Shown here piece by piece: positions 1,010-32,482 of a stretch of 64,000 bases of DNA. Position 1 is the stretch's first letter; every line of letters starts with the position of its first letter. The DNA is from Escherichia coli (GTDB lineage: Bacteria > Pseudomonadota > Gammaproteobacteria > Enterobacterales > Enterobacteriaceae): assembly GCF_003334315.1 (NCBI RefSeq), contig NZ_QOWR01000008.1. One strand, 5' to 3'. Both the position numbers and the translations under genes were made by a program. The notes beneath the pieces were generated by a model. It was not told the origin of the DNA. It saw nothing but the letters and a program-made list of their open reading frames with translations, and made no database searches.

Positions 1010-1096
1010 TGGTACCCGGAGCGGGACTTGAACCCGCACAGCGCGAACGCCGAGGGATTTTAAATCCCTTGTGTCTACCGATTCCACCATCCGGGC
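1010..1096 (-). tRNA. leuZ: tRNA-Leu (anticodon UAA), 87 nt
   Basis: Reverse complement reads GCCCGGATGGTGGAATCGGTAG...GGTTCAAGTCCCGCTCCGGGTACCA with long variable arm; anticodon loop carries UAA. Confidence 0.9.
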
Positions 1097-1108
1097 TCGG
1101 GAAGAAAG

Positions 1109-1182
1109 TGGAGGCGCGTTCCGGAGTCGAACCGGACTAGACGGATTTGCAATCCGCTACATAACCGCTTTGTTAACGCGCC
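1109..1182 (-). tRNA. cysT: tRNA-Cys (anticodon GCA), 74 nt
   Basis: Reverse complement reads GGCGCGTTAACAAAGCGGTTATGTAGCGGATTGCAAATCCG...CTCCA; anticodon GCA. Confidence 0.9.
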
Positions 1183-1236
1183 AAATTCTTCAGGCCTTTC
1201 AGCCAGACATCCGCTTGAGGCCGATGTCTTTTAAAC

Positions 1237-1312
<76 letters not shown>

Positions 1313-16636: not shown

Positions 16637-16663
16637 TCCCCGGCGGCAAGCCGGGGAGATTTC
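16637..16663. terminator. Hairpin between convergent amyA and yedD
   Basis: Stem ccccggc / gccgggg with ggcaa loop; flanking tracts only moderately U-rich. Confidence 0.4.
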
Positions 16664-17081: not shown

Positions 17082-17264
17082 TCGTCCTGCATGAGAAGAA
17101 AAGAGGATTGTGGCATTAAAGCCCTGATGTCGCCAGCCTTTCCAGGTTCAGAGAGAAATTTGATCTAACTATTATTTTTGTGAATTATTACCCCGAAAAT
17201 AAATGTGCATGATGTATGATTCGCGACTCTTGTTTCAAACCTTCTGAGTTCAGAGGCTACATTC

Positions 17265-18470
17265 ATGTCATGGCAGCAATTCAAACACGCCTGGTTGATT
17301 AAATTCTGGGCACCCATCCCTGCGGTCATCGCGGCGGGTATTCTCTCCACTTACTATTTTGGCATTACTGGCACCTTTTGGGCTGTCACGGGTGAATTTA
17401 CCCGTTGGGGCGGTCAGCTCCTGCAGCTGTTTGGCGTCCATGCTGAAGAGTGGGGTTACTTTAAAATTATCCATCTGGAAGGATCGCCATTAACCCGCAT
17501 CGACGGGATGATGATCCTCGGTATGTTTGGCGGCTGCTTTGCCGCAGCGCTGTGGGCCAACAATGTCAAACTGCGCATGCCACGCAGCCGTATCCGCATT
17601 ATGCAGGCCATCATTGGCGGCATTATCGCTGGTTTTGGCGCGCGTCTGGCAATGGGCTGTAACCTGGCAGCGTTCTTTACCGGTATTCCTCAGTTCTCGC
17701 TGCATGCCTGGTTCTTTGCCATCGCCACTGCCATTGGTTCATGGTTTGGCGCGCGCTTTACCCTGCTGCCCATCTTCCGTATTCCCGTGAAAATGCAGAA
17801 AGTTTCTGCCGCCTCACCGCTGACGCAAAAACCGGATCAGGCGCGGCGTCGTTTTCGTCTCGGGATGCTGGTCTTTTTCGGTATGCTGGGCTGGGCGCTG
17901 CTCACGGCGATGAACCAACCAAAACTGGGGCTGGCAATGCTGTTTGGCGTCGGCTTTGGTTTACTGATTGAACGTGCGCAAATCTGCTTTACTTCGGCGT
18001 TCCGCGATATGTGGATCACCGGACGTACCCATATGGCGAAAGCAATCATTATCGGTATGGCGGTGAGTGCCATCGGGATCTTCAGTTACGTACAGTTAGG
18101 CGTTGAACCCAAAATCATGTGGGCGGGACCAAACGCGGTAATTGGTGGTTTACTGTTTGGTTTTGGCATCGTGCTGGCAGGCGGCTGCGAAACCGGCTGG
18201 ATGTACCGCGCGGTAGAAGGCCAGGTGCACTACTGGTGGGTCGGTCTGGGCAATGTGATCGGCTCGACGATTCTGGCGTATTACTGGGATGATTTCGCTC
18301 CGGCGCTGGCCACCGACTGGGACAAAATCAACCTGCTGAAAACCTTTGGCCCGATGGGTGGCCTGCTGGTGACATATTTGCTGTTGTTTACTGCGCTGAT
18401 GTTGATTATCGGCTGGGAAAAACGCTTCTTCCGCCGTGCGGCACCGCAGACTGCTAAGGAGATCGCATGA
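17265..18470 (+). CDS. yedE: YeeE/YedE-family inner-membrane transporter (selenium/sulfur-compound transport family)
   Basis: 401-aa polytopic membrane ORF with internally duplicated GxCxxG-like motifs (AMGCNLAAFFTGIP, LAGGCETGWMY). Confidence 0.9.
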   Translation: MSWQQFKHAWLIKFWAPIPAVIAAGILSTYYFGITGTFWAVTGEFTRWGGQLLQLFGVHAEEWGYFKIIHLEGSPLTRIDGMMILGMFGGCFAAALWANNVKLRMPRSRIRIMQAIIGGIIAGFGARLAMGCNLAAFFTGIPQFSLHAWFFAIATAIGSWFGARFTLLPIFRIPVKMQKVSAASPLTQKPDQARRRFRLGMLVFFGMLGWALLTAMNQPKLGLAMLFGVGFGLLIERAQICFTSAFRDMWITGRTHMAKAIIIGMAVSAIGIFSYVQLGVEPKIMWAGPNAVIGGLLFGFGIVLAGGCETGWMYRAVEGQVHYWWVGLGNVIGSTILAYYWDDFAPALATDWDKINLLKTFGPMGGLLVTYLLLFTALMLIIGWEKRFFRRAAPQTAKEIA

Positions 18471-18700
18471 AAAATATCGTTCCTGATTACCGCCTTGATA
18501 TGGTGGGTGAACCCTGCCCTTATCCGGCAGTCGCAACTCTTGAGGCGATGCCGCAGTTAAAAAAAGGGGAAATCCTGGAAGTGGTGAGCGACTGTCCACA
18601 GTCGATCAATAATATCCCACTGGATGCGCGTAATCACGGCTATACGGTGCTGGATATTCAGCAAGACGGGCCGACCATTCGTTATTTAATTCAGAAGTAA
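18467..18700 (+). CDS. yedF: TusA-like sulfurtransferase-fold protein
   Basis: 77-aa ORF with TusA CPxP motif (GEPCPYPAV); 4-nt overlap with yedE. Confidence 0.92.
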   Translation: MKNIVPDYRLDMVGEPCPYPAVATLEAMPQLKKGEILEVVSDCPQSINNIPLDARNHGYTVLDIQQDGPTIRYLIQK

Positions 18701-18806: not shown

Positions 18807-19475
18807 ATGTGTGGACGCTTTGCCCAATCCCAAACGCGTGAAGATTACCTTGCGCTTCTCGCGGAAGATATTGAACGCGATATTCCCTACGATCCCGAAC
18901 CCATTGGCAGATACAACGTCGCGCCGGGAACCAAAGTTCTTCTGCTCAGTGAACGTGATGAACACCTTCATCTGGATCCGGTTTTCTGGGGATATGCTCC
19001 CGGATGGTGGGATAAACCGCCGCTGATTAACGCCCGCGTAGAAACTGCGGCCACCAGTCGTATGTTTAAACCGCTCTGGCAACATGGTCGGGCAATCTGT
19101 TTTGCCGATGGCTGGTTTGAGTGGAAAAAAGAAGGCGACAAAAAACAGCCTTATTTTATCTATCGCGCTGATGGACAACCTGTTTTTATGGCCGCGATAG
19201 GTAGCACACCGTTTGAGCGCGGTGACGAAGCCGAAGGATTTTTAATTGTCACTGCAGCAGCAGACCAGGGTCTGGTATATATTCATGACCGCCGCCCGCT
19301 GGTTCTGTCGCCAGAAGCTGCACAGGAATGGATGCGGCAAGAGATTGGCGGTAAAGAAGCATCAGAAATTGCTACCAACGGCTGTGTGCCAGCAAACCAG
19401 TTCACCTGGCACCCGGTATCGCGCGCGGTAGGTAATGTCAAAAACCAGGGCGCGGAGTTAATTCAACCTATCTGA
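18807..19475 (+). CDS. yedK: SRAP-domain abasic-site processing protein (DNA-protein crosslink former)
   Basis: 222-aa ORF starting MCGRFAQSQ... with catalytic Cys2 typical of the SRAP/HMCES family. Confidence 0.92.
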   Translation: MCGRFAQSQTREDYLALLAEDIERDIPYDPEPIGRYNVAPGTKVLLLSERDEHLHLDPVFWGYAPGWWDKPPLINARVETAATSRMFKPLWQHGRAICFADGWFEWKKEGDKKQPYFIYRADGQPVFMAAIGSTPFERGDEAEGFLIVTAAADQGLVYIHDRRPLVLSPEAAQEWMRQEIGGKEASEIATNGCVPANQFTWHPVSRAVGNVKNQGAELIQPI

Positions 19476-32395: not shown

Positions 32396-32482
32396 AAATC
32401 CCGACCCTGAGGGGGTCGGGATGAAACTTGCTTAAGCAAGAAGCACTTAAAAAATTCGTTACACCAGGAAATCTGATGTGTT
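32396..32482 (-). ncRNA. dsrA: DsrA small regulatory RNA (Hfq-dependent; activates rpoS, represses hns)
   Basis: Minus strand reads AACACATCAGATTTCCTGGTGTAACGAATTTTTTAAGTGCTTCTTGCTTAAGCAAGTTTCATCCCGACCCCCTCAGGGTCGGGATTT, ending in a terminator hairpin. Confidence 0.9.

What the first reader, a model, noticed from the sequence alone, without database searches (positions are those of the whole stretch)
17265..18700. yedE-yedF: translationally coupled YeeE/YedE-family transporter plus TusA-like protein
A polytopic membrane protein with duplicated Cys-containing motifs is followed, with a 4-nt overlap, by a 77-aa TusA-fold protein carrying the CPxP active-site motif. This two-gene module is associated in the literature with selenium/thiosulfate-type chalcogen uptake and trafficking, but its physiological role in E. 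coli is still poorly defined.
Basis: partly seen in the sequence, partly recalled or inferred. Interest (0 to 1): 0.3.

Follow-up and report, generated by a model that had tools for sequence, protein, structure and literature searches.

The report
E. coli yedE–yedF selenium-handling gene pair
This is the already annotated E. coli yedE–yedF operon, a membrane channel plus a small sulfur-carrier-like partner thought to bring selenium into the cell; it is ordinary, except that its leader carries an invariant hairpin resembling the RNA signal that the selenocysteine factor SelB binds.

Summary
ORF 17265-18470 (401 aa) and ORF 18467-18700 (77 aa) overlap by ATGA. The stretch is 100% identical to E. 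coli chromosomes, where the genes are annotated yedE and yedF. YedE has the YeeE/TsuA fold and the three conserved pathway cysteines. YedF is the TusA-fold protein of PDB 1JE3, with the CPxP motif.

- YedE's two halves are in the opposite order to TsuA/YeeE.
- The E. coli proteins fail the HMMs (TIGR04112, TIGR03527) on which the published SelD co-occurrence was computed. They belong with Campylobacter FdhT/FdhU (44% and 64% identity).
- Pairs of this subfamily lie next to selD in Ligilactobacillus salivarius and 5 kb from it in C. jejuni.
- The ATGA overlap is present in 78 of 80 Enterobacteriaceae species.
- A 17-nt block covering the yedE Shine-Dalgarno (17240-17256) is nearly invariant across these species. 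It has the architecture of a SelB-binding SECIS minihelix and shares both arms with the hairpin I take to be the selAB leader operator.

No direct E. coli phenotype was found in the papers read. Verdict: a known gene pair whose selenium-trafficking role is inferred, plus one new, testable regulatory lead.

The parts
17265..18470 (+). yedE CDS (401 aa): polytopic inner-membrane protein with the YeeE/TsuA fold, NCBIfam YedE/FdhT subfamily
   Evidence: ORF. NF033796 620 bits against a cut-off of 350. Pfam Sulf_transp matched twice. AlphaFold2 model with pLDDT 88 matches only YeeE structures in the PDB at E<1e-3. Annotated yedE in RefSeq.
18467..18700 (+). yedF CDS (77 aa): single-domain TusA-fold protein with active-site C17 in CPYP (18515-18526) and a second Cys, C43, in DCPQS
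   Evidence: ORF. NF008242 156.8 bits against a cut-off of 79. Pfam TusA E=1e-20. Identical to PDB 1JE3 residues 21-97. Cys positions.
18467..18470 (+). ATGA start/stop overlap of yedE and yedF (translational coupling signal)
   Evidence: Sequence. The same 4-nt overlap occurs in 78 of 80 Enterobacteriaceae species, in Hafnia and in two distant homologues, L006 and L091.
18456..18461 (+). AAGGAG Shine-Dalgarno of yedF, inside the yedE coding end
   Evidence: Sequence. An AAGGA-type motif is kept in this position in the other species.
17658..17660 (+). Codon of YedE C132 (GARLAMGC), equivalent to TsuA C302 and S. thermophila YeeE C293
   Evidence: Alignments. Invariant in 23 diverse homologues.
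17985..17987 (+). Codon of YedE C241 (QICFTSAFRD), equivalent to TsuA C25 and StYeeE C22
   Evidence: Invariant.
18186..18188 (+). Codon of YedE C308 (VLAGGCETG), equivalent to TsuA C94 and StYeeE C91
   Evidence: Invariant.
17240..17256 (+). Nearly invariant 17-nt leader element CCUUCUGAGUUCAGAGG. It can form 2 bp, a bulged U (17242), 4 bp and the loop AGUU (17247-17250). Its 3' arm is the yedE Shine-Dalgarno AGAGG (17252-17256). Candidate SECIS-like SelB operator.
   Evidence: The exact 16-mer CTTCTGAGTTCAGAGG occurs once in 77 of 80 enterobacterial species loci, always just upstream of yedE, while the flanks vary. The pattern scan that finds it also finds the fdhF and fdnG/fdoG SECIS elements and one site in the selA leader. 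No Rfam match.
17215..17220 (+). TATGAT, candidate -10 promoter hexamer (TA..AT conserved)
   Evidence: Conservation profile of 79 upstream regions. This is an inference and no transcription start data were consulted. The consensus scan proposed a different weak site at 17147-17175.
17159..17165 (+). Conserved TTTGATC, possibly a half-site for an FNR/CRP-type activator
   Evidence: At least 85% conserved. It fits the anaerobic, FNR/ArcA-dependent iModulon that contains yedEF (PMC7888660). This is a weak inference.

Best explanation
This is the E. coli yedE-yedF operon. YedE is an inner-membrane protein of the YeeE/TsuA fold, built from two homologous halves. Its re-entrant loops carry three invariant cysteines (C132, C308, C241). 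YedF is a cytoplasmic single-domain TusA-fold protein with a reactive Cys in a CPxP motif, made by translational coupling. By orthology with Campylobacter FdhT/FdhU and by mechanistic analogy with TsuA/TsuB (YeeE/YeeD), the most likely function is uptake of a reduced or thiol-reactive selenium species at trace concentration. The species would be relayed along the YedE cysteines to YedF C17, possibly held with C43, and handed on towards selenophosphate synthesis for selenoproteins (formate dehydrogenases) and selenouridine. Shown here: gene identity, fold, conserved residues, conserved pairing and overlap, and proximity to selD in other phyla. Inferred: the substrate, the direction of transport and the relay.
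For: Identity: 100% DNA match to annotated yedE and yedF; NF033796 and NF008242 above their cut-offs; YedF equals PDB 1JE3. Fold: only YeeE structures match the pLDDT-88 model. Cysteines: the three YeeE pathway cysteines align to C241, C308 and C132 and are invariant in 23 homologues down to 26% identity. Orthology: C. jejuni FdhT is 44% identical and collinear over 398 residues, and FdhU (75 aa) is 64% identical to YedF. [quoted passage not shown] Partner: in every homologue examined, a TusA-family gene lies beside the YedE-type gene. Selenium context: in L. salivarius the order is selB, selA, selD, yedE, yedF. In C. jejuni, selD and a two-domain YedF lie 5.3 kb away. Mechanistic model: YeeD is essential for YeeE-mediated uptake and its CPxP Cys binds the substrate (PMC11073785; PMC7449682). 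Selection: YedF has a median identity of 96% across 80 species, against 88% for YedE. Expression: yedEF sits in an anaerobic iModulon proposed to serve molybdenum and selenium usage.
Against: None of the papers read reports an E. coli yedE or yedF deletion with a selenium phenotype. Deleting the YedE-family genes in Methanococcus maripaludis gave no clear selenium transport defect (PMC11097638). The SelD co-occurrence statistic of Lin et al. 2015 was computed for TIGR04112 and TIGR03527, which the E. coli proteins fail. Most homologue contexts fetched show no selenium gene within the available flanks. The closest characterised relatives transport sulfur species. A Salmonella yedF deletion is pleiotropic (motility, virulence, anaerobic genes), and yedF mRNA fell 27-fold anaerobically there (PMC5681696). 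That disagrees with the anaerobic induction seen in E. coli.
Confidence: 0.6

Rival explanations
1. YedE/YedF import or traffic a sulfur species (thiosulfate, persulfide or zero-valent sulfur) rather than selenium, as TsuA/TsuB, SoxT and YedE1E2 do.
For: Same fold and the same three cysteines as the thiosulfate channel. Family members import thiosulfate, zero-valent sulfur or sulfur for oxidation. YedF is a TusA-family sulfur carrier by sequence. The co-regulated gene ynjE encodes a sulfurtransferase.
Against: An E. coli cysPUWA yeeE double deletion cannot grow on thiosulfate although yedEF is still present (PMC7449682). TusA, YedF and YeeD cannot substitute for each other (PMC11094781). YedE is far below both TsuA cut-offs (121 against 400 and 81 against 645 bits). 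Its orthologues lie beside selD, selA and selB, and the FdhTU role is described as selenium-related.
Confidence: 0.2
2. YedF (called Vrf in Salmonella) is mainly a regulatory factor that controls motility, virulence and anaerobic respiration genes. On this view its position inside the flagellar region is meaningful.
For: A Salmonella yedF deletion lowers motility, chemotaxis and invasion genes and raises nar, nir, dms, hyp and fdhF expression, and it can be complemented (PMC5681696). In E. coli the pair lies between amyA and fliE.
Against: YedF is a 77-aa TusA fold with no DNA-binding domain. A tusA deletion gives a similar pleiotropic pattern, which suggests an indirect effect through cofactor or selenoprotein supply. 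In 33 of 80 species yedEF had no detectable yedD, amyA or fliE neighbour within 10 kb, so the flagellar location is not conserved.
Confidence: 0.08
3. YedE exports or detoxifies excess selenium or another chalcogen, as Lin et al. suggested as an alternative.
For: Lin et al. raise this idea because selenate and selenite already enter through sulfate permeases.
Against: Characterised relatives all act as importers. [quoted passage not shown] In M. maripaludis, yedE mRNA rises on selenium starvation.
Confidence: 0.07

Closest known systems
Campylobacter jejuni FdhT/FdhU (Cj1500/Cj1501), NCBIfam NF033796 'YedE/FdhT' plus a short TusA-like partner
   Same: FdhT is 44% identical and collinear with YedE. 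FdhU is 75 aa and 64% identical to YedF, including GEaCPYPA and DCPQSIN. The gene order is the same and the genes are adjacent. Both membrane proteins pass the same curated model.
   Different: The C. jejuni genes are 3 nt apart rather than overlapping, and they lie near selD and a two-domain YedF. The selenium-related FDH role is reported for Campylobacter only. The leader hairpin of the enterobacterial gene is absent there.
TsuA/TsuB (YeeE/YeeD) thiosulfate uptake system; PDB 6LEO, 8J4C
   Same: Same fold, the same three pathway cysteines, and an adjacent TusA-fold partner with a CPxP Cys plus a second Cys. This is the best available mechanistic template.
   Different: The order of the halves is swapped. 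The YedE C-half against the TsuA N-half gives z=26.9, and the N-half against the C-half gives z=8.7, whereas same-order comparisons give z of about 4. Pfam, NCBIfam and PDB alignments show the same swap. Scores are far below the TsuA cut-offs. YedE does not replace TsuA on thiosulfate. tsuA and tsuB are separated by 13 nt and do not overlap.
TIGR04112 'YedE family putative selenium transporter' and TIGR03527 two-domain YedF (Lin et al. 2015, PMC5322559)
   Same: Same superfamily and the same gene names. TIGR04112 aligns collinearly with E. coli-order proteins. These are the families whose SelD co-occurrence underlies the selenium annotation.
   Different: E. coli YedE scores 17 bits against a cut-off of 200. 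E. coli YedF scores 22.7 against 110 and lacks the DsrE-like domain with its CGxC motif. They are therefore related but separate families.
YedE1E2 / PmpAB split zero-valent-sulfur importers (PMC10812762)
   Same: Same COG2391/Sulf_transp superfamily. The conserved cysteines are needed for activity.
   Different: These are two separate proteins of about 14 kDa with four helices each, and their substrate is sulfur. The 'EcYedE3' tested in that paper is described as a 39-kDa thiosulfate transporter, so it is probably TsuA and not this 401-aa protein.
SECIS-like SelB operator in the selAB 5' UTR (Thanbichler and Böck 2002, as described in bioRxiv 10.64898/2026.03.03.709296)
   Same: The yedE leader element has the same architecture (2 bp, bulged U, 4 bp, loop nGUn). 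Its arms CCUUCU and AGAGG are identical to those of the E. coli selA leader hairpin CCUUCUCCGUGUGAGAGG. Both lie at or next to the Shine-Dalgarno sequence.
   Different: SelB binding to the yedE element has not been tested. Its loop is AGUU (4 nt) against CGUGU (5 nt). It overlaps the Shine-Dalgarno sequence rather than preceding it. It is invariant, whereas the selA hairpin covaries between E. coli and Klebsiella or Enterobacter.

Membership tests
NCBIfam NF033796 selenium metabolism membrane protein YedE/FdhT | Whole-protein HMM score above the curated cut-off (350 bits), in one collinear stretch | tested here: met
   620 bits; residues 10-390 match profile positions 2-385 of 387.
NCBIfam NF033796 selenium metabolism membrane protein YedE/FdhT | Orthology with the characterised member, C. 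jejuni FdhT, and an adjacent short TusA-like partner | tested here: met
   44% identity over 398 residues. The partner FdhU is 64% identical to YedF. A TusA gene is adjacent in all homologue loci examined.
NCBIfam NF033796 selenium metabolism membrane protein YedE/FdhT | Selenium-dependent phenotype (formate dehydrogenase activity) | not testable with these tools
   Described only for Campylobacter, and only through reviews. The primary paper, PMC3416564, is not held.
YeeE/YedE superfamily (Pfam PF04143 Sulf_transp; YeeE fold) | Two Sulf_transp half-domains and the hourglass YeeE fold | tested here: met
   Pfam hits at 4-161 and 237-394. The AlphaFold2 model (pLDDT 88.2) matches only 6LEP, 6LEO, 8J4C and 8K1R at E<1e-3 with probability 1.00.
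YeeE/YedE superfamily (Pfam PF04143 Sulf_transp; YeeE fold) | Three conserved pathway cysteines on re-entrant loops | tested here: met
   C241, C308 and C132 align to StYeeE C22, C91 and C293 and are invariant in 23 homologues.
TsuA/YeeE thiosulfate transporter (NF041049, NF052577) | HMM score above the cut-off (645 or 400 bits) and the TsuA order of halves | tested here: not met
   80.8 and 120.9 bits, each matching only swapped halves. The half-against-half z-scores show the permuted order.
TIGR04112 YedE family putative selenium transporter (the family analysed by Lin et al. 2015) | HMM score above the 200-bit cut-off | tested here: not met
   17 bits, E=0.0026.
YedF, NF008242 (PRK11018) / TusA fold PF01206 | HMM above the cut-off, the CPxP active-site motif, and a solved TusA-type fold | tested here: met
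   156.8 bits against 79. Pfam TusA E=1e-20. C17-P-Y-P present. 100% identical to PDB 1JE3.
TIGR03527 two-domain selenium YedF (SirA-like plus DsrE-like) | C-terminal DsrE-like domain with CGxC, and an HMM score of at least 110 bits | tested here: not met
   22.7 bits, covering profile positions 1-59 of 194 only. The protein ends at residue 77.
SelB-binding SECIS / SECIS-like RNA (E. coli type) | Minihelix of 2 bp, a bulged U and 4 bp, with G and U at +6 and +7 from the bulge in a 4-5 nt loop | tested here: met
   17240-17256 fits. The same scan recovers the fdhF and fdnG/fdoG SECIS elements and a selA leader hairpin that covaries between genera. The background rate is about 1e-4 per nt.
SelB-binding SECIS / SECIS-like RNA (E. 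coli type) | Binding of SelB and selenium-dependent control of translation | not testable with these tools
   Needs gel shift or reporter assays. No Rfam family matched.

The most novel reading that the evidence does not exclude
The nearly invariant 17-nt hairpin over the yedE Shine-Dalgarno (17240-17256) would be a second SECIS-like operator, after the one in the selAB leader. [quoted passage not shown] The cell would then shut off a dedicated selenium importer when selenocysteinyl-tRNA is plentiful. If so, this would be the first direct regulatory tie between yedEF and selenium status, and a feedback loop for selenium uptake.
Probability: 0.35. Interest if true: 0.75.

Novelty: already known. 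Interest (0 to 1): 0.4.

Why it matters
According to a 2024 study (PMC11097638), no transporter dedicated to selenium is known in any organism, and YedE/YedF is the standing candidate. This window adds nothing new about the genes themselves. Three clarifications do sharpen the question. The E. coli pair belongs to the FdhT/FdhU subfamily and not to the families used for the SelD statistics. The channel is a permuted version of the thiosulfate channel. Its leader carries an invariant element with the shape of a SelB binding site. If SelB binds that element, yedEF expression is tied to selenium status, and the transporter hypothesis can be tested with simple reporter fusions.

Tried and rejected
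1. An upstream leader peptide ending at the TGA inside the 17-mer. I rejected this because its ATG lies in the probable -10 box and the upstream sequence and its length vary freely.
2. The 17-mer as a DNA operator for a dimeric transcription factor. This is unlikely because the two arms differ by one extra T, which is the bulged U, and that asymmetry is also present in the selA and Hafnia elements. It is not excluded.
3. A shared DNA motif upstream of the iModulon partners ydjX, ynjE and yjiM. Only a weak TTTGAT/ATCAA similarity appeared.
4. A wider regulon carrying the same 16-mer. A metagenome scan returned 120 contigs. In 75 of them the motif lies upstream of enterobacterial yedE, and the other 45 look like unrelated chance matches.
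5. Rfam gave no match, with either the gathering or the E<=10 threshold.
6. The E. coli ydjX leader has a strict pattern hit with the same AGUU loop next to its Shine-Dalgarno sequence. It is absent from the Klebsiella ydjX leader and is weak (-2.1 kcal/mol), so I treat it as unconfirmed.
7. The pattern hit upstream of yedE homologues L216 and L221 lies in a probable promoter spacer, so I did not count it.
8. Proteus yedE has only near-miss hairpins. C. jejuni, Firmicutes and Actinobacteria-like homologues have none.
9. The genome-contig scan returned only relatives of 85% identity or more, so it could not test selD adjacency in distant taxa. The viral-contig scan gave one locus.
10. The primary papers Shaw 2012 (PMC3416564) and Thanbichler and Böck 2002 (PMC139081) are not held. 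Their content is cited only through later papers.
Full report
**Observation**

The window holds an ORF at 17265..18470 on the + strand (401 aa) and a second ORF at 18467..18700 (77 aa). The second ATG overlaps the first TGA as ATGA. An AAGGAG ribosome-binding site lies at 18456-18461, inside the end of the first gene.

The 3-kb stretch around the two genes is 100% identical to several E. coli chromosomes. It is present in 5378 of 5426 complete E. coli genomes. RefSeq annotates amyA, yedD (opposite strand), yedE, yedF and yedK, followed by fliE.

**What the proteins are**

YedE:
- It scores 620 bits on NCBIfam NF033796, 'selenium metabolism membrane protein YedE/FdhT' (cut-off 350). It falls far below both thiosulfate-transporter TsuA models.
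- Pfam finds two Sulf_transp half-domains.
- An AlphaFold2 model built from 23 homologues has a mean pLDDT of 88 and a pTM of 0.87.
- Against the PDB, only the YeeE/TsuA structures 6LEP, 6LEO, 8J4C and 8K1R pass E<1e-3, each with probability 1.00.

YedF:
- It scores 157 bits on NF008242 (cut-off 79) and matches Pfam TusA.
- It is identical to the chain of PDB 1JE3.
- It has Cys17 in CPYP and a second Cys43 in DCPQS.

**The halves of YedE are in the opposite order to TsuA**

All sequence comparisons with YeeE/TsuA align YedE in swapped order. YedE 224-333 matches S. thermophila YeeE 5-116, and YedE 71-164 matches YeeE 233-325. The Pfam and NCBIfam matches show the same swap.

Against E. coli TsuA, the half-by-half scores are:

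| YedE half | TsuA half | z-score |
|---|---|---|
| C-terminal | N-terminal | 26.9 |
| N-terminal | C-terminal | 8.7 |
| same-order pairs | | 4.2 and 4.5 |

The three cysteines proposed to guide thiosulfate through YeeE (PMC7449682) map as follows:
- StYeeE C22 (TsuA C25) corresponds to YedE C241.
- StYeeE C91 (TsuA C94) corresponds to YedE C308.
- StYeeE C293 (TsuA C302) corresponds to YedE C132.

All three are invariant in 23 homologues down to 26% identity. C91 of YedE is not conserved.

The sequential Foldseek alignment reaches only TM 0.44-0.56 at 15-17% identity. That is what would be expected if pseudo-symmetric but non-equivalent halves are being superposed. None of the papers I read mentions this permutation.

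**Which 'YedE/YedF' family this is**

The comparative-genomics paper behind the selenium annotation analysed TIGR04112 (YedE) and TIGR03527 (a two-domain YedF with SirA-like and DsrE-like parts). It found co-occurrence with SelD at P=2.2e-16 (PMC5322559).

The E. coli proteins do not belong to those families:
- YedE scores 17 bits against a cut-off of 200.
- YedF scores 22.7 against 110 and covers only the first 59 of 194 profile positions.

The E. coli pair is instead the counterpart of Campylobacter jejuni FdhT/FdhU:
- FdhT is 44% identical and collinear over 398 residues.
- The next gene, 3 nt downstream, encodes a 75-aa TusA-fold protein that is 64% identical to YedF. It keeps both the CPYP and the DCPQSIN motifs.

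[quoted passage not shown] The primary papers were not available.

**Genomic context elsewhere**

Every YedE/FdhT-type gene I examined has a TusA-family gene beside it.

Across 80 Enterobacteriaceae species:
- The ATGA overlap is present in 78.
- The pair is always intact.
- YedF is more conserved than its neighbours. Median identities are 96% for YedF, 88% for YedE, 87% for AmyA, 80% for FliE and 71% for YedD. YedF is 100% identical in two Salmonella subspecies.
- The flagellar neighbourhood is not conserved. In 33 of the 80 species, none of yedD, amyA or fliE was found within 10 kb.

Direct links to selenium genes exist for this subfamily:
- On a Ligilactobacillus salivarius megaplasmid the order is two-domain yedF, DUF3343, selB, a class-V aminotransferase, selA, a metal-sulfur cluster assembly gene, prdC, selD, yedE (55% identical to E. 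coli YedE), short yedF.
- In C. jejuni, a selenocysteine-containing selD and a two-domain YedF lie 5.3 kb from fdhTU.

Most other contexts fetched were short or showed no selenium gene.

**How it most likely works**

The best template is TsuA/TsuB:
- YeeD is essential for YeeE-mediated uptake.
- It docks on the cytoplasmic face of the channel.
- Its CPxP cysteine binds the substrate after relay along the channel cysteines (PMC11073785).

By analogy, YedE would pass a thiol-reactive selenium species along C132, C308 and C241 to YedF C17, and YedF would then deliver it towards SelD. This step is inferred.

Evidence against a thiosulfate role:
- An E. coli strain lacking cysPUWA and yeeE cannot grow on thiosulfate although it still has yedEF.
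- TusA, YedF and YeeD cannot substitute for one another.

Evidence that weakens the selenium reading:
- No E. coli phenotype was found in the papers read.
- A yedE-family deletion in Methanococcus gave no clear transport defect.
- The Salmonella yedF deletion is pleiotropic.

Expression data also disagree. In E. coli, yedEF belongs to an uncharacterised iModulon with ydjXYZ-ynjABCD, ynjE and yjiLM. That iModulon is more active anaerobically and less active in fnr and arcA mutants. In Salmonella, yedF mRNA fell 27-fold without oxygen.

**An unexpected conserved leader element**

I aligned 79 distinct upstream regions from the 80 species. The block CCTTCTGAGTTCAGAGG (17240-17256, which is -25 to -9 from the ATG) is essentially invariant. 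The sequence 5' of it and the 7-9 nt spacer to the ATG vary freely.

- The exact 16-mer occurs once per locus in 77 of the 80 species, always at this place.
- In a metagenome scan, 75 of 120 contigs carrying the 16-mer have it upstream of enterobacterial yedE. The rest look like chance matches.
- Rfam has no match.

As RNA the block can form 2 bp (C-G, C-G), a bulged U, 4 bp (U-A, C-G, U-A, G-C) and the loop AGUU. Its 3' arm is the Shine-Dalgarno sequence AGAGG.

From my own knowledge of the literature, this is the architecture of the minimal SelB-binding SECIS hairpin of E. coli: a bulged U17 and loop bases G23 and U24, six and seven nucleotides after the bulge.

A pattern scan encoding only these features recovers the following:
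- the fdhF SECIS, GGUUGCAGGUCUGCACC, 15 nt after UGA140;
- the fdnG and fdoG SECIS elements;
- exactly one site in the 153 nt upstream of selA, CCUUCUCCGUGUGAGAGG.

I take that selA site to be the SECIS-like element through which SelB represses selAB translation. That element is described in bioRxiv 10.64898/2026.03.03.709296. The original paper is not held, and the preprint's statement that the element lies three nucleotides from the selA Shine-Dalgarno sequence does not obviously fit this minimal hairpin.

The selA hairpin is present with compensatory changes in Klebsiella and Enterobacter (CCUCUCCCGUCGGGAGGG). Three of the four upper-stem pairs change on both sides. So the scan picks a real, covarying element.

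The yedE element shares both arms (CCUUCU and AGAGG) with the E. coli selA element. Its predicted stability (-5.5 kcal/mol) is similar to that of the genuine hairpins (-4.2 to -5.0).

Hafnia alvei, in a different family, lacks the 17-mer. It has GUUCCCCGGUCGGGGGC in its yedE leader, which gives a bulged U, four G-C pairs and the fdhF loop GGUC, about 10 nt before the ribosome-binding site.

The background rate of the pattern is about 1e-4 per nucleotide per strand. A hit in a given 120-nt leader is therefore expected about 1% of the time.

Evidence against, or neutral:
- Proteus has only near-misses.
- More distant homologues have no hit.
- The hit in lineage L216/L221 probably lies in a promoter spacer.
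- The E. coli ydjX leader has a strict hit with the same AGUU loop next to its ribosome-binding site, but this is not conserved in Klebsiella.
- Three species carry variants of the 17-mer: the bulged U becomes G in two, and one has a one-base insertion in each arm.

I rate SelB-mediated translational control of yedEF at about 0.35. The invariance of the element is itself a firm observation. No paper in the searchable library links yedE with a SECIS-like leader.

**Comparison with what is known, and verdict**

The gene pair is already known and annotated.

Membership:
- The pair belongs to the YeeE fold superfamily, NF033796 (YedE/FdhT) and NF008242/TusA.
- It does not belong to TsuA, TIGR04112 or TIGR03527.
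- It most likely works like TsuA/TsuB, but with a selenium species as substrate. I give that 0.6, with sulfur trafficking as the main rival at 0.2.

The only potentially new item is the leader hairpin, which offers a cheap and decisive experiment.

Noticed in passing
window 17265-18470 (YedE residues 1-200 against 201-401): The two homologous halves of YedE are in the opposite order to those of TsuA/YeeE, a circular-permutation-like swap. Some 400-aa relatives (for example P0173, P0181, P0186) keep the TsuA order yet score best on the YedE/FdhT model, in two stretches.
   Followed up: partly
window 18807-19475 (yedK) and loci L008-L010: yedK (SOS response-associated peptidase) follows yedF in this window. 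tblastn found no yedK in the three Escherichia species representatives, where 2.5-5.3 kb of other DNA separates yedF from fliE, and only 2 of 80 species loci gave a yedK hit. The yedF-fliE interval appears to be variable.
   Followed up: no
window 32396-32482 (-), 40847-40936 (+), 1013-1312 (-), 50691-50777 (-), 51769-51841 (+): Rfam gathering-score matches to DsrA sRNA, RseX sRNA and five tRNA genes.
   Followed up: no
L092:5373-5389 (E. coli K-12 ydjX leader, -29 to -13 from the ATG): AUUAUCAAGUUUGAUAU fits the same SelB-type pattern (bulged U, 4 bp, loop AGUU) and abuts the ydjX ribosome-binding site. ydjXYZ-ynjABCD is co-regulated with yedEF in an uncharacterised iModulon. The hairpin is weak (-2.1 kcal/mol) and absent from the Klebsiella pneumoniae leader.
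   Followed up: partly
L092:5277-5291 and L227 (xthA-ydjX intergenic region): TTGAG-AAAA-ATCAA in E. coli and CTGAG-CAAA-ATCAA in Klebsiella form a conserved FNR-like site upstream of ydjX. This fits the anaerobic activity of the iModulon.
   Followed up: no
L215:1574-1777: A YdfZ-family gene (Pfam PF14001) lies 1.2 kb upstream of yedE in a Klebsiella-like metagenome contig. From memory, E. coli YdfZ has been described as a selenium-binding protein.
   Followed up: no
L222:1-1484 and L225 (Proteus lineage): In the Proteus lineage, yedE lies directly downstream of hypD and an AIRS-family gene (probably hypE). These hydrogenase maturation genes are linked to formate hydrogenlyase.
   Followed up: no
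PMC7888660 against PMC5322559 Table 1: yjiL and yjiM (2-hydroxyglutaryl-CoA dehydratase activator and subunit homologues) are co-regulated with yedEF in E. coli. Genes annotated the same way are top STRING neighbours of YedE, YedF and SelD in Slackia heliotrinireducens. This may point to an unrecognised selenium-linked enzyme.
   Followed up: no
window 16637-16657: A GC-rich hairpin (TCCCCGGCGGCAAGCCGGGGA) lies between the convergent genes amyA and yedD and is probably a terminator.
   Followed up: no
L088:11609-12631 (-): C. jejuni selD has an in-frame TGA at codon 17 (KAAG*AAKLS), so it is a selenocysteine-containing SelD. It carried no precomputed Pfam hit in the contig table.
   Followed up: partly
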